Of a stretch of DNA of 49,247 nt, positions 12,539 through 26,694 are shown piece by piece. This DNA is from an uncultured Candidatus Saccharibacteria bacterium (GTDB lineage: Bacteria; Patescibacteriota; Minisyncoccia; UBA6257; 2-01-FULL-56-20): NCBI GenBank assembly GCA_964409535.1, contig CAYPDQ010000002.1, positions 1-49,247 of the forward strand, written 5' to 3'. Under the pieces are notes generated by a model. That model had not been told where the DNA came from. It worked only from the letters and a program-made list of their open reading frames with translations, and ran no database searches. The stretch's first letter is position 1; every line of letters begins with the position of its first letter. A program made the position numbers and the translations under genes.

Positions 12539-13056
12539 CTTTGGTAAGTCCCCATCAATTCCGCCTCGGCGATGACGTGGCCATTCATCGCGTCTCTCAA
12601 CTCATTTACGTTCGCATCCGAACCCAGGTCCAAAATCGTATCCAGAGCGTAGAGTTTAAAGTAGTAGCGATGCGCCCGGCCCGCCGGTGGACAAGGACCG
12701 CCGTAGCCGCCGCGCCCGAAACTCGTTTCGCCTTCCACGCTTTGTGGCGGCACGCTCCCTTCTCCGATGGCGGCGGTCTGCGGAGGAATGTTCCACGCCG
12801 TCCAGTGGGTGAAAGTTCCGCCGGGCGCGTCCGGGTCGTCCACGATCAAAACCAAACTCGCCGCCTCCGCCGGGACGTCCTGGACGCGGAGTTCCGGATT
12901 CACGTCGCCGCCGTCGCAGGTGAACTTGACCGGAATTCCCTCTCCCTCGCCGAAACTTGGACTGGTCAAAATCATTTTGCTTCTAATTAGCATCGCCGCG
13001 CCGACCAAGAGCGCGATCAAAGCCGCCAAGGTAAGTATAATCCGTAACCACCTCAT
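12535..13056 (-). CDS. YbhB/YbcL-family PEBP (Raf kinase inhibitor-like) protein with signal anchor
   Basis: LVLIVDDPDAPGGTFTHWTAWNIP and GYGGPCPPAGRAHRYYFKLYALD are PEBP signatures. Confidence 0.85.
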   Translation of the reverse strand: MRWLRIILTLAALIALLVGAAMLIRSKMILTSPSFGEGEGIPVKFTCDGGDVNPELRVQDVPAEAASLVLIVDDPDAPGGTFTHWTAWNIPPQTAAIGEGSVPPQSVEGETSFGRGGYGGPCPPAGRAHRYYFKLYALDTILDLGSDANVNELRDAMNGHVIAEAELMGTYQR

Positions 13057-13451
13057 TTTCTACGCGGGGTAAACCACTTGGACTTTTTCATCCTCCTTTG
13101 CATAGCCGACTTCTTTTCGGCCACGGTTTCCAGGTAATTGGCGTACTCCTGCCGCATAAGCCCAAGCGCATTTTCACTGCGGGGCTTCGTCCTCCCGGGA
13201 TAGCGCCAAGCGCTTATTATTTTACGCTTGCTCCCGACGTCCTGGTACATCACCCAAATCTCGTGTTTGCCGTTGCCAGCGGGCTGCATCGAGGCCCAGG
13301 TTTTGGGCGCGATCCCCTCCTCCGTCCGCGCGGGCGAGTGCAAAACCCGCCGCACCCGCGCCTCGGAGAGCCGATAGAAACCCATCTTCTCCCGGCTGTG
13401 CCAGGTCCAGTGGATGGTTTTGGGCTTATGAATGACGACTATTGACATCAA
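13053..13451 (-). CDS. hypothetical basic protein
   Basis: 132-aa ORF at native GC. The likely ATG at 13448-13446 overlaps the TGA of the upstream gene (TGATG). No family recognised with confidence. Confidence 0.45.
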   Translation of the reverse strand: MMSIVVIHKPKTIHWTWHSREKMGFYRLSEARVRRVLHSPARTEEGIAPKTWASMQPAGNGKHEIWVMYQDVGSKRKIISAWRYPGRTKPRSENALGLMRQEYANYLETVAEKKSAMQRRMKKSKWFTPRRK

Positions 13452-14278
13452 TGGATTTCACAAATCAGTTGCGCACGCTTCAAATATACCTCCCACTCTC
13501 GTTTTGCTATATCTATATCCCTCTCAAGAATTCTGTTGTGCCGATATTCACTGCCGCACACCCTTGCAGAAAAGTACCAGATGCCCATATTGGATTTTTC
13601 CGGATTATTGCTGTGATCCACAATAAACCGTGCCACGTCTTTATCTGTTTTAGTAGTATTGTTCAGCATTTTGACTGTCCGTCGCACCCATATATCTATG
13701 GGCTGTAACAAAAATCTATGTTCTAGGCTAAACTTTTCAGTATTGATATCCGTAATTTCCTTTAAGTCGCGTAAGAAAAAAGAAGATATTTTCGGGCCAA
13801 CCCCCCGAATATTTTTCACAAATTCAAACGCTACTTGGACTTCCCCTTGTTGCAACGAATCTTGCGTTGTTTTCACTAAGTTAGCTTTGTTACCCTCACG
13901 CAATTGTCGCAATAGCGACTTTGAATGTGGCGATTTTGCACTTGGATTAAGCGGTTGTCGATCAAGATTTAGTCTTTCATCTCCAAGTTTGTCTTTAAAA
14001 GATTTCCATAATTCTTCTTCTGTAATACTATCAATCCTGCCTTCCTTTAAAGCATTGCCTTCCTTCACGGCATCAACGGCAGCGTGGGTATAGTTGGGGC
14101 TCCTTCCCTGCCTCTCAAATGCATATCCGTTCAAGAAAAAAGCGGCGGCTTGCCACGGTTCCTTGCACTCTCCATATTCTTCCCAGTTAGGCCACAAAAT
14201 AGTTTGACAATAAACCCCGCCGACTTCTTCAAAAAACTTCATCCAGTGTTTTACCAAATCCAAGCGGACTATTTCCAT
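13448..14278 (-). CDS. HhH-GPD superfamily DNA glycosylase-like protein (divergent, Ogg2/EndoIII-like motif)
   Basis: IRGVGPKISSFFLRDL is a helix-hairpin-helix with Lys at the EndoIII K120-equivalent position. QPIDIWVRR downstream resembles the VDTHV/LDRH catalytic-Asp motif. The gene is low-GC. Confidence 0.55.
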   Translation of the reverse strand: MEIVRLDLVKHWMKFFEEVGGVYCQTILWPNWEEYGECKEPWQAAAFFLNGYAFERQGRSPNYTHAAVDAVKEGNALKEGRIDSITEEELWKSFKDKLGDERLNLDRQPLNPSAKSPHSKSLLRQLREGNKANLVKTTQDSLQQGEVQVAFEFVKNIRGVGPKISSFFLRDLKEITDINTEKFSLEHRFLLQPIDIWVRRTVKMLNNTTKTDKDVARFIVDHSNNPEKSNMGIWYFSARVCGSEYRHNRILERDIDIAKREWEVYLKRAQLICEIH

Positions 14279-15030
14279 TTCTCAATTTTCCTTATCATTT
14301 TCTCAAATTTTTCCGTGGGCATGTATTTCGATCTGCTCCGATTAGCCTCGGCATCAAATTCTAAATTACCGGACAGCAAAACAAAGTTTTCCTTATTGGG
14401 CAACCCACTATTCCTAATAAAGTCTTTTTCGTAATCCTCTACCTTATATTTTGAACGCCTACGGTGAGCTGCCGATACAGATGGCAACAATAGAAAATAC
14501 TGGCTCTTACTAATTCTGTGCGTCTGGCAATGCTTCTCAATTTGTTTCCTAAAATCGCTAATCGCCTTGTCCTGATCATACCCTCCTCTCTCTCCTCGTC
14601 GGAACTTACGTCTAACTTTCTTGATATTCTCTCTGGTAAAAACGCCTTGCATCCATCCTATTTTCGCCTTTGTCTCTACGATTGCTATCGTTCTACCATC
14701 TTTTTCTACCCTAACGTCAGGAACTGTTTTCTCTTTCTGACGCCGTAGGTAAATTTCCCACCCTAGATTTTTAACTTTGGAGTAGTGGTAGAAAATCCTA
14801 GCTATCAAAAACTCCATTTCTGAAGTTACAGGGTTATGATAAGCGGATTCGAATACATCTTTCTCCTTAAATGTATCTTTTACCGATTGCTCTGACGTGT
14901 ATAACTCTCCTATATAATCCAGTAGAAGCTTCGTTGCCTTTTTTCTGCTTGAAAGTAAATTGGCAATATACTTCGCTTTTCCATCCAACCATAAATAGTA
15001 CTCTCTTTTAATTTTGGAAAGTTTCTTCAT
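14269..15030 (-). CDS. PD-(D/E)xK nuclease, restriction-endonuclease-like
   Basis: SEMEFLIARIF ... VPDVRVEKDGRTIAIVETKAKIG fits the E-Xn-PD-Xn-ExK catalytic core. Low-GC. Overlaps the downstream glycosylase-like gene by 10 nt. Confidence 0.55.
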   Translation of the reverse strand: MKKLSKIKREYYLWLDGKAKYIANLLSSRKKATKLLLDYIGELYTSEQSVKDTFKEKDVFESAYHNPVTSEMEFLIARIFYHYSKVKNLGWEIYLRRQKEKTVPDVRVEKDGRTIAIVETKAKIGWMQGVFTRENIKKVRRKFRRGERGGYDQDKAISDFRKQIEKHCQTHRISKSQYFLLLPSVSAAHRRRSKYKVEDYEKDFIRNSGLPNKENFVLLSGNLEFDAEANRSRSKYMPTEKFEKMIRKIEKWK

Positions 15031-15161
15031 TGCTTACGCTTCTAACGATAGGCAGGGCAGGCAGAAATGCAAGGAAATCACTGTTAATAACTTGATTGGC
15101 CTGTGGCTTGACAAAATGTCCTTGGTTGATCTATGCTTTTGGCATAATCACTAGGAAAAAG

Positions 15162-15198
15162 CACGGCTCGGGGTCTCGTTCCCAAGCGGTGTTTTTTT
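15162..15198 (-). terminator. rho-independent terminator after the Cas4-like gene (bidirectional architecture)
   Basis: Imperfect GC-rich stem: 15162-15172 pairs with 15181-15191, with two mismatches. It is flanked by A5 (15156-15160) and T7 (15192-15198). On the minus strand the hairpin is followed by TTTTT. Confidence 0.6.
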
Positions 15199-15889
15199 AT
15201 TTCTTGGATACCAAAACCGCATTCTTGCGGTACTCGCAGTATTCGCAGTCCGAAGACGGTTCCGGCACTGCATCTCCATCCAAAACCTTCCGCGCTTTTT
15301 CCAAAACGCCCGGCACCCAGGAGGGGTCGCCCTTCAAGGGCTCCACGAAAATGTCGAAGGTCAGATTTGGCCTGCCCTCACCGTTGGAAAAGCCGTCTTT
15401 TTTGTCCACCCGCGCAAAGACGAAGTAGCCAGTGTCGGAGACCGGATACTCGTTCTGCCGCAACAGCCACTGATATATCTCCATCTGCCGCGGATAGGAC
15501 TCGTGGACTTTGTGTTCATTCGCGCCCGTGGCCTTGTAGTCCACGACGATTAGCTCGCCTTTGGGATTTACCCAGACGTCGTCCACCGCGCCGTAGACCA
15601 GAAAGTCCGTCGGCTTGTGATGGAACTGCACGCCGGTGAAATTGTGCCGCCATTTATTCAGTTTCTCCGATCTGTACGGAACCGCGTCCACTCCGGCTTC
15701 AACCATTATCGGGTGCGGCTTGCCTTTTTCGCGGTAAACGTCAAACTCCTGCTTCAGGATGTAGTCAATCGCGGTGTTTATGGTATAGGGCGCGGGCGGC
15801 GGGCGCTTGACTCCGTGCTTCACGTCCAGCCAAAAGCAGCGCGGGCAATCCAAGTATAGTTCAATTTTGGAACGGGAGAGTTTGGTCAT
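15197..15889 (-). CDS. Cas4/RecB-like PD-(D/E)xK nuclease with putative Fe-S cysteines
   Basis: N-terminal CPRCFW, a core (GAVDDVW...LIVVDYKAT), and a C-terminal CEYCEY. This is the PDDEXK_1/Cas4-type arrangement. No CRISPR or cas genes are nearby. Confidence 0.7.
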   Translation of the reverse strand: MTKLSRSKIELYLDCPRCFWLDVKHGVKRPPPAPYTINTAIDYILKQEFDVYREKGKPHPIMVEAGVDAVPYRSEKLNKWRHNFTGVQFHHKPTDFLVYGAVDDVWVNPKGELIVVDYKATGANEHKVHESYPRQMEIYQWLLRQNEYPVSDTGYFVFARVDKKDGFSNGEGRPNLTFDIFVEPLKGDPSWVPGVLEKARKVLDGDAVPEPSSDCEYCEYRKNAVLVSKK

Positions 15890-21171: not shown

Positions 21172-21242
21172 TGGGGGGTCGTCTAACGGTAGGACACCAG
21201 CCTTTGAAGCTGGGCATGAAGGTCCGACTCCTTCCCCCCCAG
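21172..21242 (+). tRNA. tRNA-Gln (anticodon TTG)
   Basis: Manual cloverleaf: acceptor TGGGGGG/CCCCCCA with U1-A72, D stem GTCT/GGAC, anticodon stem CCAGC/GCTGG with loop CTTTGAA, 4-nt variable loop, T stem GAAGG/CCTTC, discriminator G. CCA is not encoded. Confidence 0.85.
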
Positions 21243-21287
21243 CTAACCTCTGGCTCGCGCGATTTGGACCGTTAAATCAATTTTTGC

Positions 21288-21293
21288 TAAAAT
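21288..21293 (+). promoter_or_regulatory. -10 box (TGcTAAAAT), 6 nt upstream of the cupin start
   Basis: tttgcTAAAATattcctATG. Confidence 0.55.
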
Positions 21294-21299
21294 ATTCCT

Positions 21300-21692
21300 A
21301 TGAAAGGTTATGCAGCCAATATCGAAAAGCTCTCGCTGGAGAACGACAATTTCCGAAAGGTTCTTTATACCGATAAAAACAGCCAGCTTGTCCTTATGTC
21401 TCTTCTTCCGGGCGAAGAGATCGGCGAAGAGGTGCACGATGTTGATCAGTTTTTGCGCGTGGAGAAAGGCGCGGGCAAGGCCGTAGTAAGCGGCATCCCG
21501 CATGATATTGCCGACGGAAGCGCCGTCGTAGTGCCTGCCGGCACCAAACACAATATCGTGAATACCGGAACCGAATCTATGAAGCTCTACACGCTTTATA
21601 TGCCGCCGCATCACCGGGATCAAGTGGTGCACAAGACCAAAGCCGAAGCGGAGACGGATACCGAGCACTTTGACGGCGGCACCACCGAATAA
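21300..21692 (+). CDS. cupin domain protein
   Basis: 130 aa. GEEIGEEVHDVDQFLRVEKG...VVVPAGTKHNIVN fits the two-motif cupin pattern. Confidence 0.8.
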   Translation: MKGYAANIEKLSLENDNFRKVLYTDKNSQLVLMSLLPGEEIGEEVHDVDQFLRVEKGAGKAVVSGIPHDIADGSAVVVPAGTKHNIVNTGTESMKLYTLYMPPHHRDQVVHKTKAEAETDTEHFDGGTTE

Positions 21693-21816
21693 TCCCGTTA
21701 GATCCTGGCCGATATACCGATCCAGAGACGCCGGTTCTAAACCGCGTCGCACGGCAAGGTGCGGGAGAGCCGCGTCAGTCCAAGTTTGAATCCTGGTTCC
21801 CCAACAAAGACGTACT

Positions 21817-22557
21817 ATGAAACTTATATCTCTAAACACGTGGGGCGGACGTGCTGGTAAGGAAAAGATTCTTGATTTTTTCAGGAAGTACAAAGATACG
21901 GACGTTTTCTGCCTCCAAGAGGTATGGAACGGCGGACATGACCAGGCGGCTCAATGGGGCGACGTCGTACCATACCTTTTAAGCGACGTCAGCGAAATGT
22001 TGCGGGACCATGTTGCGTTTTTTAGACCTCATTGGCAGGATTGGTACGGCTTGGCAATCCTTATTTCAAGAAATCTTGGCGTTCGTGAAGAGGGAGATGT
22101 TTTCGTTTTTAGAAGAAGAGCGGATGTATTTGATGGAGAGGTAGTCAATCATGCCCGTAATATCCAATACGTGGAAATAGAAACAAAGAAAGGCCCACTG
22201 ACAGTGATAAATTTCCACGGACTTTGGAATGGTGGCGAGAAAACGGATACTGATGAGCGGCTTCTACAGTCAGATAATATCGTGAAATTCCTAAAACGGA
22301 TTCCACATTCCCATATCCTGTGTGGCGATTTTAACTTATTACCACAAACAAAAAGTTTAGGAAAACTGGAAAATCTTGGAATGAGAAATCTTGTCAAAGA
22401 GTTTGGTATTACTTCAACCAGATCAAGTTACTATGCAAAGCCGGAGCGCTTTGCGGATTATACTCTCGCAAGCAACGATATCAAAGTTAACGAATTTAAA
22501 ATATTGCCGGATGAGGTCTCCGACCACCTTGCTATGTATTTAAATTTCGAAAACTAA
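21817..22557 (+). CDS. endonuclease/exonuclease/phosphatase (EEP) family protein
   Basis: ISLNTWGG, DVFCLQEVW, VINFHGLW, CGDFNLLP, VSDHLAM. Confidence 0.85.
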   Translation: MKLISLNTWGGRAGKEKILDFFRKYKDTDVFCLQEVWNGGHDQAAQWGDVVPYLLSDVSEMLRDHVAFFRPHWQDWYGLAILISRNLGVREEGDVFVFRRRADVFDGEVVNHARNIQYVEIETKKGPLTVINFHGLWNGGEKTDTDERLLQSDNIVKFLKRIPHSHILCGDFNLLPQTKSLGKLENLGMRNLVKEFGITSTRSSYYAKPERFADYTLASNDIKVNEFKILPDEVSDHLAMYLNFEN

Positions 22558-22576
22558 TATCCCCTGCCCGGCAGCC

Positions 22577-23320
22577 ATGTATAAAGCATTAATTTTCGAT
22601 TTGGATGGAACGGCAATTCCGAATAAGCCGGATGGACTGCCATCCGATGAACTTGTGAAAGTAATCCGAAAATTAAAGAAAAATTTGAAGATTTGCGCGG
22701 CAACCGGCAGACCTCTATACAATTCCAAACCCATTCTTCGGAAGCTCGGTTTAACCGACCCCTGTATAATTTCGGGAGGGACACAGCTCGTAGATCCGAC
22801 AACCGAAAGGGTCTTATGGGAAAAGGACATGGATAAATCGCAGGTAGAAGAAATAATGGCGATTACATCGAAATATCCTTACCAAGTTTTTTTTAGCGAT
22901 GAAAAAACAAGTGCCCTGGGAAAAGACAAGAAAATCAAAGGTGCCGAGCGGATAATTTATATAATGTCAGTAGAAAAAATAGAAACAGAAATTATTTTAG
23001 AAAAGTTGGCTAAAATACCAAATATAACCGCTCACAAAGTAATTTCTTGGTCGCCAGGTTGTTTTGATATCCACATAACTCATTCAGAGGCAACAAAAGA
23101 ATATTCCCTGCATGTGCTTCTCGAAATATTGGGTGTTAACAAAAGTGAAGTCGTTGTAGCCGGAGATAGTAATAATGACCTTCCTCTTTTCGAAATAGCA
23201 AATTATAAAATAGCAATGGAAAATGGATCGGAAGAACTCAAGGCCAAAGCGGATTTTATTGCTCCAGATATCAACGAAGACGGGTTAACAATAGCACTCC
23301 GAAAGGTCTTTTCTATCTAG
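22577..23320 (+). CDS. Cof-type HAD-IIB phosphatase
   Basis: LIFDLDGTAI (motif I), ATGRP, GDSNNDLPLFE (motif IV). Confidence 0.85.
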   Translation: MYKALIFDLDGTAIPNKPDGLPSDELVKVIRKLKKNLKICAATGRPLYNSKPILRKLGLTDPCIISGGTQLVDPTTERVLWEKDMDKSQVEEIMAITSKYPYQVFFSDEKTSALGKDKKIKGAERIIYIMSVEKIETEIILEKLAKIPNITAHKVISWSPGCFDIHITHSEATKEYSLHVLLEILGVNKSEVVVAGDSNNDLPLFEIANYKIAMENGSEELKAKADFIAPDINEDGLTIALRKVFSI

Positions 23321-23455
23321 GTCGGTTCCAATAACGTCCCAGGCGACCGGCAAGCAAAACCAACTCGCTCTTGCGGCGAGGCAATTTTGTTTTATGCTGA
23401 TGGGAGTTTAGGCTGTGTTAGTTTTCAAAGGTTTTCCCCAGAGAAAAAGTTAAGA

Positions 23456-23461
23456 TATAAT
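23456..23461 (+). promoter_or_regulatory. -10 box TATAAT, 6 nt upstream of the ATG at 23468
   Basis: gaTATAATtttcgcATG. Confidence 0.55.
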
Positions 23462-23467
23462 TTTCGC

Positions 23468-24073
23468 ATGAGCGAAGTGGAAAAAATCTTTAATAACCAT
23501 AAAGAAGAATTGAGACAAGTTGTAGAAATTATCACCGTTTTCAATAGAATAGAAAACATCGTGGTTATATTCGTAAGTAGCGCGTTTGCTTCTGTTTACG
23601 ACGGGCAGGAACGGATAATCTTGATGAATGACGTACTAAACGATGTCAATATTTTTGAAACCTTCAATCAAAAATTAAATTTTCTGGAAAAAACAATTTC
23701 AAGGGTAGCAATGATTGCGAAACGGGCTAAAGAAGCGTTCGACGAAAAGAAATACCTCAATGTTTGTAAGTCCATTAGAGATATCCAGAGGTATCGTAAC
23801 AAAATTGCTCATATGTCATTAATGTTTTCCCCCGAGGGAAAGGCTGTTATTTTCAAACGGAAAAAGGACAAGGAATTATTGGTAACCAAGGGTGGTAGCT
23901 TTAACAGGGAAGAACTCGATTTGAATAACGTTACAGAAAAGGTCTGGGCAGTTTATAAAACGGCGGAGGAGGTTTTACTTAAGGAGGGTATTAAAGATAT
24001 CATAAACATTCTACTGAAGGAAGAGTTAGTAAATTTTTACCGGACAAGCTCGGTGAAGAAAACTTACAAATAG
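23468..24073 (+). CDS. HEPN-motif protein (Abi-like putative RNase/toxin)
   Basis: AT-rich orphan. IRDIQRYRNKIAHMS contains the Rx4H HEPN motif in its common RN..AH form, preceded by the helical FNQKLNFLEKTI. Start placed at the internal ATG because of the -10 box; the track start is TTG at 23387. Confidence 0.5.
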   Translation: MSEVEKIFNNHKEELRQVVEIITVFNRIENIVVIFVSSAFASVYDGQERIILMNDVLNDVNIFETFNQKLNFLEKTISRVAMIAKRAKEAFDEKKYLNVCKSIRDIQRYRNKIAHMSLMFSPEGKAVIFKRKKDKELLVTKGGSFNREELDLNNVTEKVWAVYKTAEEVLLKEGIKDIINILLKEELVNFYRTSSVKKTYK

Positions 24074-24084
24074 TAAAAAATAAC

Positions 24085-24177
24085 GTGATCGGTCAACAAA
24101 CTAAAACCCTCTGCACTCTATACCTCGTCCGGCACGGGGAAACGGAAAAGAATAAGGGCACCTTCTCCTCCAGATAA
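24085..24177 (+). pseudogene. N-terminal remnant of a histidine phosphatase (PGAM-like) gene
   Basis: A 30-codon frame reads (V)IGQQTKTLCTLYLVRHGETEKNKGTFSSR*. LVRHGETE is the catalytic RHG motif block (compare MRLILTRHGETHEN of the intact gene at 25282). The frame ends where the high-GC aldolase segment begins. Confidence 0.45.
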
Positions 24178-24184
24178 GGTGCCC
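24156..24184 (-). terminator. hairpin downstream of the extended aldolase frame
   Basis: gggcacctt (24156-24164) pairs with aaggtgccc (24176-24184): a 9-bp stem with an 11-nt loop. On the minus strand it is followed by ttattctttt. Confidence 0.45.
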
Positions 24185-24204
24185 CTCGAACGATTACCAA
24201 ACTG

Positions 24205-25161
24205 TCACGCGCGACTGCCTCTCAACCCCAGACGTCGGTAGGCAGTTAGTAGCCCCTCGCGACGAAGGAAGTCCTTGACGTACTCCAACGGCAGTCCTCT
24301 CCCGCCGTAACGGAGAATTTCGAGTGTTGCGTCTGCCGCCTGCTCCGCTTACGCAAGAAGAGCATACGCTCTCTCTATCCTGAAACTCCTCGCAACGAAG
24401 CCGTGATTCATCCACAGTACCGCCTGATGCTTGAGGAGTGGATTGATACTCGCGCTCACGAGGGCTTCGGACCCGGAAGGTCTGTAGGGCACAATCCCAA
24501 CCAGGCTGGGGACGTTGCGATTTAGTCCTTCAACTTGAGTGTAAATCGCCGCATTGAACGACTTGAAGTTCCCGTTTATCCGCGGATGGACAGCAAGGAG
24601 ATTCAAGCAACGCAGGTGAGCGTGAACCACAGCTGGCGTCCCGACTCCCTCCTTGATTCCGATGCCGCACGCCAGCATGTGAACGTGCGTCTCGATGGAC
24701 GGAATCGTGCCGAACTCGCGGTTGCCATATAGAACCCTGATTGCTCTGCCGCCTTTCCCGATCTCGACGAGGTTCAAGAATCGCCCGTCCTCGCCTTGCC
24801 GCAGGGTTTCAAGTATCGCCGAGAGTTGCGAACCCGTACACGTGATGAGTATAACTCTGCCGCTAAGCGGTTTCGCGAGCTCATAGAACCGCGTGTCGGC
24901 AATACCCTCGCTGCGATATCCCGTTCGCCCGTCTTTCCTGATCGCAGACAGTTCCTGGATTGACTTGAAATTGAACCATCTGCTTGCACGGCGACGAAAT
25001 CGTCTCGCCAGAACTCCGGAGGTCTGCTCCGAAAAGACCTGGCTTACGTCTCCGCCTGCCGCTGGATGGACTTGTTGGTACCGATTGGCGAAGAACGCCA
25101 GATCTTTGACGGCGGTATCCAGTTCTTTGTGGATACCCAGCAAACTCGGAGTGTCTGTCAT
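24205..25161 (-). pseudogene. class II aldolase (rhamnulose-1-phosphate aldolase-like) interrupted by an in-frame TAA at 24349-24351
   Basis: GGDVS, ILITCTGSQ, SIETHVHML, AVVHAHLRCLNLLAV and VLWMNHGFV parallel the RhaD motifs. After the TAA the same frame continues AEQAADATLEILRYGGRGLPLEYVKDF... for 47 codons to a TGA at 24205-24207. Confidence 0.6.
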
Positions 25162-25269
25162 TGGGCCCCCTCTCTATTCTTGTTTAATTTTGAAGTGTCT
25201 AACGGCGAAACACGCTAGTATTTATCTTACTAAATCAAGTTATCCACATCCATAGTCCTTTGAGAGATA

Positions 25270-25275
25270 TAGAAT
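25270..25275 (+). promoter_or_regulatory. -10 box TAGAAT, 6 nt upstream of the 25282 start
   Basis: gataTAGAATtgaggtATG. Confidence 0.5.
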
Positions 25276-25281
25276 TGAGGT

Positions 25282-25908
25282 ATGAGACTTATATTGACTC
25301 GCCACGGAGAAACTCACGAAAACGTGAAAAAGATCTCTATGGGCCAAGGGGTTGACGGAATACTCAACGAACAGGGCATAGAGCAAGCAAAAAAATTAGC
25401 GAATCGCCTCAAAGACGAACGGATTGACTTTGCTTACATAAGCGATCTTAAAAGAGCTATCGATACGGCGGAAGAAATTCTTAAATTTCATTCACGCGTT
25501 GAAGCGATACATACACCCTATCTTCGCGAAAGAAATCTAGGAGTATATGAAGGAGGACCGAATACCGTATGGAAGGAAGTAATGCAGAAATCGTCTTTGC
25601 CGTTTCACTCTTTTCAACCACAAGGCGGCGAATCTTACAGTCAACTTCAAGAGCGCGTAGGAAAATTCTTTGATGAACTTCTATCTAAACATGGAAGTAA
25701 TTCAGTACTCCTCGTTAGTCATACTGGCGCCTTGACAATGCTTCTCCTAAAGATATTGGGTAAAGATATAACTCGCGAAAACTACGAGGAATATAAACCG
25801 GGGAATACTGCAGTAACGATTTGCGATGTCACACCAGAAGGATCATCCTTTATTCGCATCTTAAATAGCATTGAACATTTAGAAAAAGATATTTGTAACG
25901 CAGAATAA
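25282..25908 (+). CDS. histidine phosphatase family protein (PGAM-like)
   Basis: LILTRHGETHEN, ISDLKRA, LLVSHTGAL. Confidence 0.85.
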   Translation: MRLILTRHGETHENVKKISMGQGVDGILNEQGIEQAKKLANRLKDERIDFAYISDLKRAIDTAEEILKFHSRVEAIHTPYLRERNLGVYEGGPNTVWKEVMQKSSLPFHSFQPQGGESYSQLQERVGKFFDELLSKHGSNSVLLVSHTGALTMLLLKILGKDITRENYEEYKPGNTAVTICDVTPEGSSFIRILNSIEHLEKDICNAE

Positions 25909-26694
25909 TCACCTGCCGCGCTCGTAGCCGTTCTTTATCCGGCTCTTCCGCCACTTGATCTTCCTTATCTTCTCAAACAGGGGTTGGTAGATGTCTTCCC
26001 GCGGGTCCATCGTGAGTTCGCTCCGGTCTACTTTCTCTTTGAACTCGACCAGAGCGCCTGCCTGCCTGTCTGCGCAGGCAGGCGCAGACAGGCCGGTTAT
26101 GACCGCAAGCGGCTGCCGTTCCGCGCCCTCTCCCATAACCGCAACCGCCGCCGTCGCCAAACTGTCGGCGACATCGGTTCTCGTAAGTTTCAGTTTCCTC
26201 CCGAAGATATCCGGCGTGCCGCGGTAGTCCCGGACACCGCCAAAGCCGCTGTATCCCAAGGCGACGCCCACGACTCCCGCCCGGAGCGGCAAGAGGCGGC
26301 TGTCGCTTACGATGATGCCGAGATTCTTGACGCGGTAATGTTTTTTCAACCTCTCCCGCAACGCTCGCGCTGTCTTGAAACTATCCTTGGGTAGAAGGAC
26401 CATCTTTCCGTCCGCATTAGATTCGTCCACGCCGGCCGAAGACATCACCATATCGTCTTTGATGGTGAGCCAGGTGTATTTCGTCCGCATCGCCCACTGG
26501 CTTTCGGCCCTGATGAGGCGCTCTTTGGCACGCGGGCCGCTTTTCCCGCTCACCCGCCGCTCCGAGAGGGAGACGATTTTGGACGTTACGACGATAATGG
26601 AACCGTCTTTGACGCGTTTTACATAACGGATAATGAAGGGAACGAGCTGCTCCCCTTCCCGGAAAATACGCGTGCGCACGGCGCGGATAAGCAT
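25909..26694 (-). CDS. CofE-like F420-0:gamma-glutamyl ligase family protein
   Basis: SIIVVTSKIVSLSE, AGVDESNADGKMVLLP, IIVSDSRLLPLRAGVVGVALG, DSLATAAVAVMGEGAERQP. Confidence 0.7.
   Translation of the reverse strand: MLIRAVRTRIFREGEQLVPFIIRYVKRVKDGSIIVVTSKIVSLSERRVSGKSGPRAKERLIRAESQWAMRTKYTWLTIKDDMVMSSAGVDESNADGKMVLLPKDSFKTARALRERLKKHYRVKNLGIIVSDSRLLPLRAGVVGVALGYSGFGGVRDYRGTPDIFGRKLKLTRTDVADSLATAAVAVMGEGAERQPLAVITGLSAPACADRQAGALVEFKEKVDRSELTMDPREDIYQPLFEKIRKIKWRKSRIKNGYERGR
26064..26093. repeat. perfect 12-bp GC-rich hairpin inside the CofE-like gene
   Basis: gcctgtctgcgc (26064-26075), loop aggcag, gcgcagacaggc (26082-26093). It encodes part of LSAPACADRQAG. Confidence 0.8.

What the first reader, a model, noticed from the sequence alone, without database searches (positions are those of the whole stretch)
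13448..15130. AT-rich two-gene cassette pairing a PD-(D/E)xK nuclease with an HhH-GPD glycosylase-like protein and no methyltransferase: candidate base-excision/nuclease defence module
There is a sharp compositional break. One 60-nt line I counted inside the block (14281-14340) has 23/60 G+C, against 38/60 for a line in the adjacent PEBP gene (12841-12900). The low-GC block contains exactly two minus-strand genes that overlap by 10 nt (15030->14269 and 14278->13448). It starts just after the strong terminator of the upstream Cas4-like gene. Its upstream region has a long leader, unlike the leaderless native genes. Its final TGA overlaps the ATG of the native downstream gene (TGATG, 13446-13450), so it has been grafted onto the head of a native operon. 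Gene 1 shows an E...PD...ExK restriction-endonuclease core (SEMEFLIARIF; VPDVRV...IAIVETKAK). Gene 2 shows a helix-hairpin-helix with Lys (IRGVGPKISSFFLRDL) and a downstream Asp motif (QPIDIWVRR). These resemble the EndoIII LPGVGRKTA...VDTHV and Ogg2 GIGxKxASHFLRN...LDRH signatures, but with about 14 extra residues between the Lys and the Asp. No methyltransferase or other repair gene accompanies them. A horizontally acquired nuclease plus bifunctional-glycosylase-like pair looks more like a modification-dependent (type IV-like) or glycosylase-initiated anti-phage system than housekeeping BER. Glycosylase-based phage defence has only recently been described for unrelated folds. I do not recognise this pairing as a named system.
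Basis: partly seen in the sequence, partly recalled or inferred. Interest (0 to 1): 0.75.

Follow-up and report, generated by a model that had tools for sequence, protein, structure and literature searches.

The report
Acquired nuclease plus Ogg-like glycosylase cassette
A 1.75-kb piece of foreign DNA carrying a rare nuclease gene and an unannotated DNA-glycosylase-like gene was inserted precisely between two core genes of a Patescibacteria (CPR) genome; each gene resembles recently described anti-phage enzymes, but the two are not a conserved pair.

Summary
Two overlapping minus-strand genes (g1, 15030..14269; g2, 14278..13448) have third-codon-position GC of 0.41-0.42, against 0.66-0.74 in all neighbours. 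Close relatives of this genome keep the same gene order but lack both genes. There, the stop of the Cas4-like gene abuts the start of the downstream gene g3. So g1 and g2 arrived as one ~1.75-kb insertion.

Both fold calls hold at superfamily level only. g1 is a PD-(D/E)xK nuclease with invariant E73, P104-D105 and E119-x-K121. g2 is an HhH-GPD protein closest to Ogg2/AGOG, with invariant K163 and D195.

The "two-gene system" reading is weak. None of 78 other g2-family loci carries g1. Only 3 of 33 independent g1 groups have any HhH neighbour, and no fusions exist. g1 moves as a single ORF and more often sits beside RecB/Cas4-type nuclease or helicase genes.

The novelty claim is dated. HhH-fold defence glycosylases (Dag) and nuclease-plus-Ogg-like fusions (END nucleases) were described in 2025.

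Best reading: a Dag-like solitary glycosylase/lyase travelling with an autonomous mobile nuclease, probably acting on foreign or modified DNA. A repair role is not excluded. I rate it a new variant of a known kind, of moderate interest.

The parts
15031..15196 (-). Leader of the inserted block. It contains a terminator-like hairpin (15187-15166, 7-bp stem then a T-run) directly after the Cas4-like stop codon.
   Evidence: Sequence and hairpin. There is no counterpart in relatives, where the Cas4 stop abuts the g3 ATG. No Rfam family matches. The fold z-score of -1.8 is unremarkable.
14269..15030 (-). g1: a 253-aa PD-(D/E)xK-superfamily nuclease of a very small, unannotated family.
   Evidence: Invariant E73, P104-D105 and E119-x-K121 in 14 sequences. 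The AF2 model has pLDDT 82.5 with an alpha-beta-beta-beta-alpha-beta core. Foldseek top hits are EcoT38I, HindIII, EcoRV and ERCC4, restriction endonuclease, Mrr, VRR-NUC, all with E > 0.04. No Pfam, PADLOC or NCBIfam hit. Only 110 representatives exist in 1.84e9 proteins. GC3 is 0.42.
13448..14278 (-). g2: a 276-aa HhH-GPD-superfamily, Ogg2/AGOG-like predicted DNA glycosylase/AP-lyase of a large unannotated family.
   Evidence: The AF2 model has pLDDT 95.1 and is all-alpha. Foldseek top hits are CacOgg 3f10 (prob 0.89), the Pfu AGOG-like 1xg7 (prob 0.94, TM 0.48/0.53), SsOgg and Pa/Pab-AGOG. The family profile against PDB gives 4ejy at E = 0.006 and aligns K163 and D195 with the HhH Lys and the catalytic Asp. 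Of 57 members, 15 hit Pfam Ogg-HhH weakly. Invariant residues are Y52, G159, K163, R170, D171, Q192, P193, D195, W197, N230, G232 and W234. GC3 is 0.41.
13446..13450 (-). TGATG junction: the g2 stop overlaps the ATG of the native downstream gene g3. This is the distal insertion junction.
   Evidence: In relative L122 the same g3 ATG directly follows the Cas4-like TAG.
15197..15889 (-). Native Cas4-like PD-(D/E)xK (PDDEXK_1) gene. It is the proximal flank of the insertion and not part of the acquired block.
   Evidence: Pfam PDDEXK_1 at 7.8e-18. At least 7,944 homologues exist, named from Patescibacteria, Liptonbacteria and Parcubacteria MAGs. GC3 is 0.72. It is 80% nt-identical to L122 up to window position 15215.
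13053..13451 (-). Native 132-aa gene g3 (function unknown). It is the distal flank of the insertion.
   Evidence: A homologue sits directly after the Cas4-like gene in L122/L123. GC3 is 0.74. It is absent from all g1 and g2 loci elsewhere.

Best explanation
A ~1.75-kb operon was acquired horizontally from a lower-GC donor. It inserted exactly at the stop/start junction between the core Patescibacterial Cas4-like gene and its downstream gene.

The operon carries two enzymes that are each autonomous elsewhere.
- g2 is a solitary, sporadically distributed Ogg2/AGOG-like HhH-GPD enzyme. It has an intact Lys/Asp catalytic pair and a conserved Trp two residues after the Asp. I predict it flips out and excises a non-canonical (probably modified or damaged purine) base and nicks the strand by beta-lyase chemistry. 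This is what the recently described defence-associated HhH glycosylases (Dag) do.
- g1 is a small PD-(D/E)xK endonuclease that spreads as a single-ORF cassette among CPR-type genomes.

In this cassette the two are co-transcribed and probably translationally coupled (10-nt overlap). The most likely combined action is that the glycosylase marks or nicks DNA carrying a base the host does not have. The nuclease then converts such lesions, or foreign DNA generally, into breaks. That would be a loosely coupled, methyltransferase-free, modification-dependent restriction function.

Shown: the insertion, the folds, the conserved catalytic residues and the distribution.
Inferred: the substrate, the defence role and any cooperation between the two proteins.
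For: Single insertion: empty sites in four relatives with otherwise conserved synteny, equal GC3 in both genes and a 10-nt ORF overlap.

g2 as a glycosylase/lyase: a high-confidence model, Ogg/AGOG structural neighbours, K163 and D195 aligned to the catalytic Lys and Asp of an Ogg-like structure, and both residues invariant in 57 homologues.

Dag-like traits of g2: it is solitary, more AT-rich than its host (median -4 GC points over 78 loci, minimum -20), and scattered across many bacterial and archaeal phyla. Some operonic neighbours are defence or mobility genes: a type IIG R-M enzyme, a type III-like methyltransferase, WYL regulators, AlbA_2, GmrSD_N, a resolvase and an rve integrase. These match the traits reported for Dags: mobile, AT-rich, HhH superfamily near aGOG/Ogg, with a Lys/Asp/Trp active site.

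g1 as an active nuclease: an invariant E...PD...ExK signature on a canonical core.

Some link between g1 and HhH proteins: three independent g1 groups are followed by three different HhH genes (window; L026-28 g2-like at E = 4e-18; L001 Ogg-HhH at Pfam 1.7e-6). There is experimental precedent for nuclease plus Ogg-like HhH working together in defence (END nucleases).
Against: - No experiment exists, and no PADLOC hit was found.
- The pair is not conserved: none of 78 other g2 loci has g1, and 30 of 33 g1 groups have no HhH neighbour.
- No fusion was found.
- g1's commonest neighbours are generic repair-type genes: the Cas4-like core gene, PcrA/UvrD-RecB nuclease fusions, RecQ and DUF2779. That fits repair or selfish mobility as well as defence.
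- Many g2 neighbours are housekeeping genes.
- The nearest structural relatives of g2 are 8-oxoguanine repair enzymes.
- Other low-GC islands in this window carry ordinary enzymes.
- All fold matches are weak (Foldseek E > 0.04; profile E = 0.006).
Confidence: 0.4

Rival explanations
1. Horizontally acquired base-excision-repair supplement. g2 is an Ogg2/AGOG-type glycosylase/lyase for oxidised or alkylated purines in host DNA. g1 is an accessory repair nuclease that processes the resulting ends or intermediates. There is no role against foreign DNA.
For: The closest structures are 8-oxoG glycosylases. g1 homologues sit beside repair-type genes: the Cas4-like core gene, PcrA/UvrD-RecB-nuclease fusions, a RecQ-family helicase and an Ogg2-like gene. 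CPR genomes are small, and this window acquires ordinary enzymes on low-GC islands as well.
Against: Both genes are absent from close relatives. The g2 family is patchy across phyla and AT-rich relative to its hosts. That is unlike core repair glycosylases, as contrasted. g1 is extremely rare. Some g2 neighbours are R-M or defence genes.
Confidence: 0.25
2. Two unrelated passengers. g1 is a selfish, mobile single-ORF endonuclease, like a free-standing homing endonuclease or an orphan restriction gene, that inserts beside conserved DNA-metabolism genes. g2 is an independent solitary gene. They merely travelled together once.
For: Homology of 80-86% nt between L001, L003, L012 and L011 covers exactly the g1 ORF, and the flanking genes are unrelated. 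g1 lies next to RecB/Cas4-family genes in 8 of 33 groups, in three different orientations. The closest g1 relative (L120, 56%) has no HhH partner. g2 is solitary elsewhere.
Against: Both genes have the same GC3, the ORFs overlap by 10 nt, and there is a single empty site. A g1-then-HhH order recurs at three independent loci. Insertion contexts differ, which is not classical homing to one cognate site. No recombinase or terminal repeats are present.
Confidence: 0.2
3. Obligate split END-type nuclease. g2 serves only as the modified-base sensor and recruits or activates g1, which is the sole DNA-cleaving effector.
For: END nucleases fuse a PLD or 'NucS-like PD-DExK' nuclease to an Ogg/EndoIII-like HhH sensor, and these restrict hypermodified phages. 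In L001 the HhH partner of g1 has Pro in place of the catalytic Lys (GIGLP), as expected of a sensor.
Against: g2 keeps K163 and D195 invariant across its family, so it is not an inactivated domain. The pair is not conserved. No fusions exist in either family. No structural test of a complex was possible.
Confidence: 0.1
4. g2 is not a glycosylase but a DNA base-hypermodification transferase, of the aGPT-Pplase or amino-acid:DNA transferase type. That type shares the HhH-glycosylase-like fold.
For: The third Foldseek hit is the phage PaMx11 gp46 5-PmdU glycinyltransferase 8z2n (prob 0.75).
Against: No 5-hmdU kinase or other modification genes lie nearby. No relatives were found in viral contigs or plasmids. 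The Lys/Asp pattern aligns with Ogg-type catalytic residues.
Confidence: 0.03

Closest known systems
Dag defence-associated DNA glycosylases (Getz et al., bioRxiv 10.1101/2025.10.29.685425)
   Same: Both are single-domain HhH-superfamily enzymes placed near aGOG/Ogg in fold space. Both have a Lys/Asp catalytic pair plus a nearby Trp, and both are undetectable by ordinary sequence annotation. Both are sporadic across phyla, lie in AT-rich or mobile regions, and are usually encoded alone.
   Different: The g2 family occurs mainly in Acidobacteriota, Planctomycetota, Chloroflexota, archaea and here a CPR bacterium. It was not found in Vibrio integrons. Residue spacing differs: K163/D195/W197 in g2 against K118/D184/W188 in Dag1. 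Sequence membership in Dag1-17 could not be tested because no Dag sequences were available. No phage data exist. In this window g2 is coupled to a nuclease gene.
END nucleases (PMC12191111), especially END^Mag (PD-DExK nuclease fused to an Ogg-like domain)
   Same: Both combine a nuclease with an Ogg/EndoIII-like HhH module and lack a methyltransferase. Restriction of hypermodified DNA is shown for END nucleases and only predicted here.
   Different: END nucleases are single polypeptides with a catalytically inactive HhH sensor. Here there are two ORFs, the HhH protein keeps its catalytic Lys and Asp, the pairing is not conserved, and no fusions exist in either family.
Archaeal Ogg2 / AGOG 8-oxoguanine DNA glycosylase-lyases (e.g. 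3fhf, 3fhg, 1xg7, 1xqp, 7oue)
   Same: These are the best structural and sequence neighbours. The HhH motif G-x-G-x-K-x-[AS]-S-x-F-L-R is followed by a catalytic Asp, and there is no Fe-S cluster.
   Different: Similarity is only marginal (E 0.006-0.5; TM 0.36-0.53). g2 has about 11-13 extra residues between Lys and Asp relative to the Ogg-like chain 4ejy. It also has family-specific invariant motifs (FLxGYAFERQGR, NPExxNMGIWYF). It does not reach the Pfam or NCBIfam thresholds.
Type II/IV restriction endonucleases of the PD-(D/E)xK superfamily (EcoT38I, HindIII, EcoRV, Mrr) and ERCC4/VRR-NUC repair nucleases
   Same: g1 has the same catalytic core and the E...PD...ExK signature. These are also its weak structural neighbours.
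   Different: No family-level match was found. There is no methyltransferase partner and no recognisable DNA-recognition or modification-reader domain, apart from rare relatives carrying DUF7662, a zinc ribbon or an unknown 150-aa domain.

Membership tests
HhH-GPD DNA glycosylase superfamily (g2) | Helix-hairpin-helix followed by a Gly/Pro-rich loop and a conserved catalytic Asp, with a Lys in the HhH for bifunctional members | tested here: met
   GVGPK163 and QPID195IW align to GVGPK...PTDVW of the Ogg-like chain 4ejy (profile E = 0.006). K163, D195 and G159 are invariant in 57 sequences.
HhH-GPD DNA glycosylase superfamily (g2) | Two-lobed all-alpha fold similar to solved members | tested here: inconclusive
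   The model has pLDDT 95 and is all-alpha. The top Foldseek hits are Ogg/AGOG enzymes with prob 0.77-0.94, but E is 0.3-1.4 and TM is 0.36-0.53.
HhH-GPD DNA glycosylase superfamily (g2) | Reaches a curated profile threshold (Pfam HhH-GPD/Ogg-HhH, or NCBIfam N-glycosylase/DNA lyase) | tested here: not met
   The window protein has no hit. Of 57 relatives, 15 hit PF22175 only weakly, best E = 8e-4.
HhH-GPD DNA glycosylase superfamily (g2) | Base-excision (and lyase) activity | not testable with these tools
   This needs a biochemical assay.
Dag defence glycosylases | HhH-superfamily fold with a Lys/Asp (and Trp) active site | tested here: inconclusive
   K163, D195 and W197 are invariant and the fold lies near Ogg/AGOG. 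No Dag sequence or model was available for direct comparison.
Dag defence glycosylases | Encoded in mobile, AT-rich, sporadically distributed loci, usually as a single gene | tested here: met
   Shown by the empty site, GC3 of 0.41 against about 0.7, a median of -4 GC points over 78 loci, the patchy phyla and the lack of any conserved partner.
Dag defence glycosylases | Protects against phages with modified (7-deazaguanine) DNA | not testable with these tools
   This needs phage challenge experiments.
END nucleases | Nuclease domain and Ogg/EndoIII-like domain in one polypeptide | tested here: not met
   There are two ORFs. No long fused relatives appear among the g2 hits (235-377 aa) or among the 110 g1 representatives.
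END nucleases | HhH domain lacks catalytic residues (sensor only) | tested here: not met
   K163 and D195 are invariant in the g2 family. Only the unrelated L001 partner lacks the Lys.
END nucleases | No cognate methyltransferase | tested here: met
   None was found among neighbours or by motif scan.
PD-(D/E)xK nuclease superfamily (g1) | alpha-beta-beta-beta-alpha-beta core carrying E...(P)D...(D/E)xK | tested here: met
   E73, P104-D105 and E119-x-K121 are invariant. Helix 67-87 is followed by strands 92-95, 106-110 and 113-120, then a helix, then strand 178-182. All structural neighbours belong to the superfamily.
PD-(D/E)xK nuclease superfamily (g1) | Assignment to a named family (Pfam, NCBIfam or PADLOC profile, or a strong structural match) | tested here: not met
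   No profile hit was found. The best Foldseek E-values are 0.22 (PDB) and 0.045 (BFVD).
Conserved two-gene (operon-level) defence system g1+g2 | Recurrent co-occurrence of the two families across genomes | tested here: not met
   Only one other independent locus (L026-28) pairs g1 with a g2-like gene. None of 78 other g2 loci has g1, and 2 of 33 g1 groups have a g2-family neighbour.
R-M remnant with Vsr/Mig-type repair enzyme | Adjacent (cytosine) methyltransferase in this or related loci | tested here: not met
   None is present in the window. Among g1 loci, only L002 has a type III methyltransferase nearby. Two of 39 operonic g2 neighbours are DNA methyltransferase or type IIG enzymes.

The most novel reading that the evidence does not exclude
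g1-type nucleases together with interchangeable HhH modules form a split, modular counterpart of END nucleases in CPR-type bacteria. The modules look catalytically intact in the window and in L026-28, and Lys-less in L001. In this two-component, glycosylase-initiated restriction system, base excision or nicking by the HhH protein would license double-strand cleavage by the PD-(D/E)xK partner.
Probability: 0.15. Interest if true: 0.7.

Novelty: new variant of a known kind. Interest (0 to 1): 0.4.

Why it matters
Patescibacteria (CPR) have tiny genomes and few recognised anti-phage systems. A clean, datable acquisition of a glycosylase-plus-nuclease cassette in one lineage is therefore a useful natural experiment.

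The g2 family has at least 185 clusters at 90% identity, spans bacteria and archaea, and has no annotation in any library I could search. It is a good candidate for a new family of HhH defence or repair glycosylases. Its substrate could reveal which modified or damaged bases matter in these environments.

g1 shows an unusual pattern of ORF-precise mobility next to RecB/Cas4-type genes, and this pattern is unexplained.

If the two proteins cooperate, the cassette would be a split, catalytically active version of the END-nuclease design. If they do not, the finding is two ordinary accessory genes that were inserted together.

Tried and rejected
- Curated libraries (Pfam, NCBIfam, PADLOC) gave nothing for g1 or g2. 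Sequence search of PDB gave nothing for g1, with either the single sequence or the profile.
- Fusion ("Rosetta stone") proteins linking g1 to an HhH domain: none among 110 representatives. The extra domains found were DUF7662, a zinc ribbon and an unknown 150-aa domain.
- Phage or plasmid carriage: there are no relatives of either family in IMG/VR contigs or PLSDB.
- Insertion scars: no convincing target-site duplication or terminal inverted repeats. The 23-nt, 78% direct repeat bracketing g1 (14260-14282 / 15182-15204) is at about the level my rough estimate gives for chance in 3 kb.
- tRNA or structured-RNA integration site: none at this locus.
- Uncalled genes in the 600-1000 bp upstream of g2 homologues in L006, L007 and L009: no conserved ORF was found.
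- Shared synteny to explain the Cas4-like/g1 adjacency in other loci: none beyond the two genes.
- Classical homing to a site in the Cas4-like gene: rejected as the sole explanation. g1 lies 5' of, 3' of, or convergent to its partners, and can be up to 2.6 kb from the nuclease-domain coding region.
- Identity with the crenarchaeal Sis-HhH-GPD family: rejected. That protein has Ser in place of the Asp and Fe-S cysteines.
- Direct comparison with Dag sequences: not possible, because the supplement gives only locus tags.
Full report
OBSERVATION

The two minus-strand ORFs exist as described: g1 at 15030..14269 (253 aa) and g2 at 14278..13448 (276 aa), overlapping by 10 nt.

GC falls to 0.37-0.44 across 13.5-15.15 kb, against 0.54-0.63 on both sides. 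The signal is clearest at third codon positions: 0.42 and 0.41 for g1 and g2, against 0.66-0.74 for six neighbouring genes.

The quoted peptide motifs are all present. A terminator-like hairpin (15187-15166) follows the stop of the upstream Cas4-like gene, and a 166-nt leader precedes g1. The g2 TGA overlaps the ATG of the next gene, g3, as TGATG at 13450-13446.

Homologues of g1 align from its first residues. This supports the 253-aa start over the shorter 239-aa gene call.

THE INSERTION IS PROVEN

The Cas4-like neighbour is a core Patescibacterial gene. It has at least 7,944 homologues, many at 60-70% identity, and sources name them from Liptonbacteria, Parcubacteria and Patescibacteria MAGs.

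Contigs from close relatives keep the window's gene order: YrdC, AI-2E transporter, Cas4-like, g3, PEBP, DoxX-like, DUF763. These are L122-L124 (Cas4-like 84% identical) and L125 (76%). All of them lack g1 and g2.

At DNA level, window 15889..15215 matches L122 5908..6582, and window 13427..12210 matches L122 6622..7875. So about 1.79 kb in the window replaces 39 bp in L122.

In L122 the Cas4 stop abuts the g3 start (TAG|ATG). In the window the g2 stop overlaps that same ATG. The block is the leader, g1 and g2. It therefore entered inside a native operon, at a stop/start junction, most simply as a single event. Equal GC3 and the ORF overlap support this.

No target-site duplication, inverted repeats, tRNA or recombinase marks the site.

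WHAT THE PROTEINS ARE

Neither protein hits Pfam, NCBIfam or PADLOC.

g2. It has at least 185 relatives at E <= 0.001. All are unnamed or 'hypothetical' except one that JGI labels 'endonuclease III'.
- An alignment-based AlphaFold model is very confident (pLDDT 95.1) and all-helical.
- Its best PDB neighbours are Ogg and AGOG 8-oxoguanine glycosylases: 3f10, 1xg7, 3fhg, 1xqp and 7oue. A phage thymidine-hypermodification transferase (8z2n) also appears. E-values are only 0.3-5.6 and TM-scores 0.36-0.53.
- The family profile finds the Ogg-like chain 4ejy at E = 0.006. The alignment places K163 on the HhH G-x-G-x-K lysine and D195 (QPIDIW) on the catalytic aspartate, with 11 inserted positions in between.
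- K163, D195, W197 and nine other residues are invariant in 57 diverse homologues. Fifteen of the 57 touch Pfam Ogg-HhH weakly.
- Conclusion: g2 is a divergent Ogg2/AGOG-like HhH-GPD protein that looks catalytically competent as a bifunctional glycosylase/lyase. Activity itself is inferred.

g1. Its family keeps E73, P104-D105 and E119-x-K121 invariant.
- These residues sit on an alpha-beta-beta-beta-alpha-beta core in a model with pLDDT 82.5.
- The nearest structures are EcoT38I, HindIII and EcoRV, and ERCC4, restriction endonuclease, Mrr and VRR-NUC proteins. All belong to the PD-(D/E)xK superfamily and all matches are weak.
- The family is tiny: 110 representatives among 1.84 billion proteins, nearly all 240-270 aa.

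IS IT A TWO-GENE SYSTEM?

I collected 39 loci that hit the g1 profile (33 independent groups once the window is added and copies at >=85% identity are collapsed) and 82 loci that hit the g2 profile, 78 after excluding duplicates and L026/L027.

Profile searches of all six-frame ORFs show the following.
- Only one other independent locus (L026-L028) has g1 followed, 25 nt later, by a g2-like gene (E = 4e-18, 28% identity). That gene lacks the C-terminal third.
- No other g2 locus has g1.
- L001 has g1 followed by a different, 170-aa Ogg2-like HhH protein (Pfam Ogg-HhH 1.7e-6; NCBIfam N-glycosylase/DNA lyase 1.6e-10). Its HhH reads GIGLP, so it lacks the catalytic Lys.

So 3 of 33 g1 groups have an HhH neighbour of some kind. 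That is more than I would expect by chance for a gene class that makes up well under 1% of a genome (my rough estimate, not a formal test). It still falls far short of a conserved system.

The commonest g1 neighbours are RecB/Cas4-family genes, in 8 of 33 groups:
- the Cas4-like gene in the window, L002, the L003/L014 group and L022;
- a 381-aa PDDEXK_1 protein in L121;
- PcrA/UvrD-helicase fusions to a RecB-type nuclease in the L026 group and the L030/L036 group;
- a DUF2779 protein in L012.

g2's operonic neighbours are heterogeneous. They include a type IIG R-M enzyme, a large N6/N4 methyltransferase, WYL regulators, AlbA_2 proteins, GmrSD_N, a resolvase and an rve integrase. They also include PPDK, CcmF, BacA and DeoC.

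Neither family occurs in IMG/VR viral contigs or PLSDB plasmids.

g1 IS MOBILE ON ITS OWN

L001, L003, L012 and L011 share 80-86% nucleotide identity over exactly the g1 ORF, and the flanks are unrelated. L003/L014 (93%) and L003/L002 (80%) share g1 plus the adjacent Cas4-like gene and then diverge.

So g1 spreads as a single-ORF cassette, or as a g1+Cas4-like pair, into different contexts. It is usually more AT-rich than its surroundings.

In the window the Cas4-like gene is native (GC3 0.72, syntenic in relatives). The adjacency here arose by insertion beside it, not by co-transfer. Why this nuclease ORF ends up next to RecB-family, helicase and glycosylase genes remains unexplained.

COMPARISON WITH WHAT IS KNOWN

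Two 2025 preprints change the context.
- Getz et al. (10.1101/2025.10.29.685425) show that diverse HhH-superfamily glycosylases ('Dag') protect against phages with 7-deazaguanine DNA. They are single-gene, integron-borne or otherwise mobile, AT-rich and undetectable by sequence annotation. Dag1 is bifunctional and needs a Lys, an Asp and a Trp, and Dags cluster near aGOG/Ogg.
- The END-nuclease preprint (PMC12191111) shows that PLD or PD-DExK nucleases fused to a catalytically inactive Ogg/EndoIII-like domain restrict hypermodified phages without a methyltransferase.

g2 alone matches the Dag description in every respect I could test. Membership in a named Dag family could not be tested, because the supplement gives only locus tags.

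The g1+g2 arrangement echoes END nucleases but fails two of their defining features: it is not fused, and its HhH protein is not inactivated.

VERDICT

The sequence observation is right, and the horizontal acquisition is now demonstrated.

The cassette is best read as a Dag-like solitary glycosylase/lyase co-transferred with an autonomous, mobile PD-(D/E)xK nuclease, probably directed at foreign or modified DNA (confidence 0.4).

The rivals are:
- an acquired repair supplement (0.25);
- two unrelated passengers, with g1 as a selfish element (0.2);
- an obligate split END-type system (0.1);
- a base-modifying transferase (0.03).

It is not a conserved, unnamed two-gene system. Its kind is now known, so I rate it a new variant of a known kind with moderate interest (0.4).

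Noticed in passing
window 21172-24400 and 25000-26100: There are two further low-GC islands (minimum GC 0.367 and 0.409). The first begins right after the window's only tRNA (tRNA-Gln, 21172-21243). It carries an Exo_endo_phos family protein (21817-22557), a HAD hydrolase (22577-23320) and an unannotated 228-aa ORF. The second carries a histidine phosphatase (25282-25908). This genome seems to acquire AT-rich cassettes of ordinary enzymes repeatedly.
   Followed up: partly
window ~15886-15889 (AI-2E / Cas4-like junction) compared with L122 3260-5911, L123, L124, L125: All four relatives have an ~883-aa P-type cation ATPase between the AI-2E transporter and the Cas4-like gene. The window lacks it, and the AI-2E stop overlaps the Cas4-like start. 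This is a second indel in the same operon.
   Followed up: no
L001 8001-8744, L003 3479-4222, L012 1195-1950, L011 638-1381: g1 homologues share 80-86% nucleotide identity over exactly the ORF, with unrelated flanking genes. This is ORF-precise single-gene mobility without a visible recombinase or repeats.
   Followed up: partly
L001 3425-9271: A RecQ-family helicase fused to a Top1 zinc ribbon and a DUF559 (Vsr-like) domain (1208 aa) lies about 1 kb upstream of a g1 homologue. That g1 is followed by a 170-aa Ogg2-like protein whose HhH lysine is replaced by proline. This could be a sensor-type HhH next to the nuclease.
   Followed up: partly
L006 6171-6404 and 6789-6941; L006 7935-8573: The closest g2 homologue (51%) is preceded by two copies of a repeated element of ~150-230 nt (near-identical translated stretch RSVVRGGN..ALAEKRG.SRLSPVS). 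It is followed by an rve-family integrase, which suggests a mobile context.
   Followed up: no
P0228 (756 aa), residues 687-751: A 65-residue fragment of the g1 nuclease core (KTIAIIEIKAKAGWIQPF...) sits at the C-terminus of a long repeat-rich protein with recurring GGGVG motifs. This is probably a gene fragment or a chimeric gene call.
   Followed up: no
P0146 and P0158, C-terminal ~150 aa; P0139, N-terminal ~100 aa: Rare g1 relatives carry extra domains: a shared unannotated domain (…WWF[TS]F…DF..LKVP…) and a DUF7662 domain. These may be DNA-recognition modules attached to this nuclease core.
   Followed up: partly
window 14260-14282 and 15182-15204: An imperfect 23-nt direct repeat (78%) brackets g1. 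One copy spans the Cas4-like stop and the other spans the g1/g2 overlap. It is about as strong as my rough estimate of a chance match in 3 kb, so I did not interpret it as an insertion scar.
   Followed up: partly
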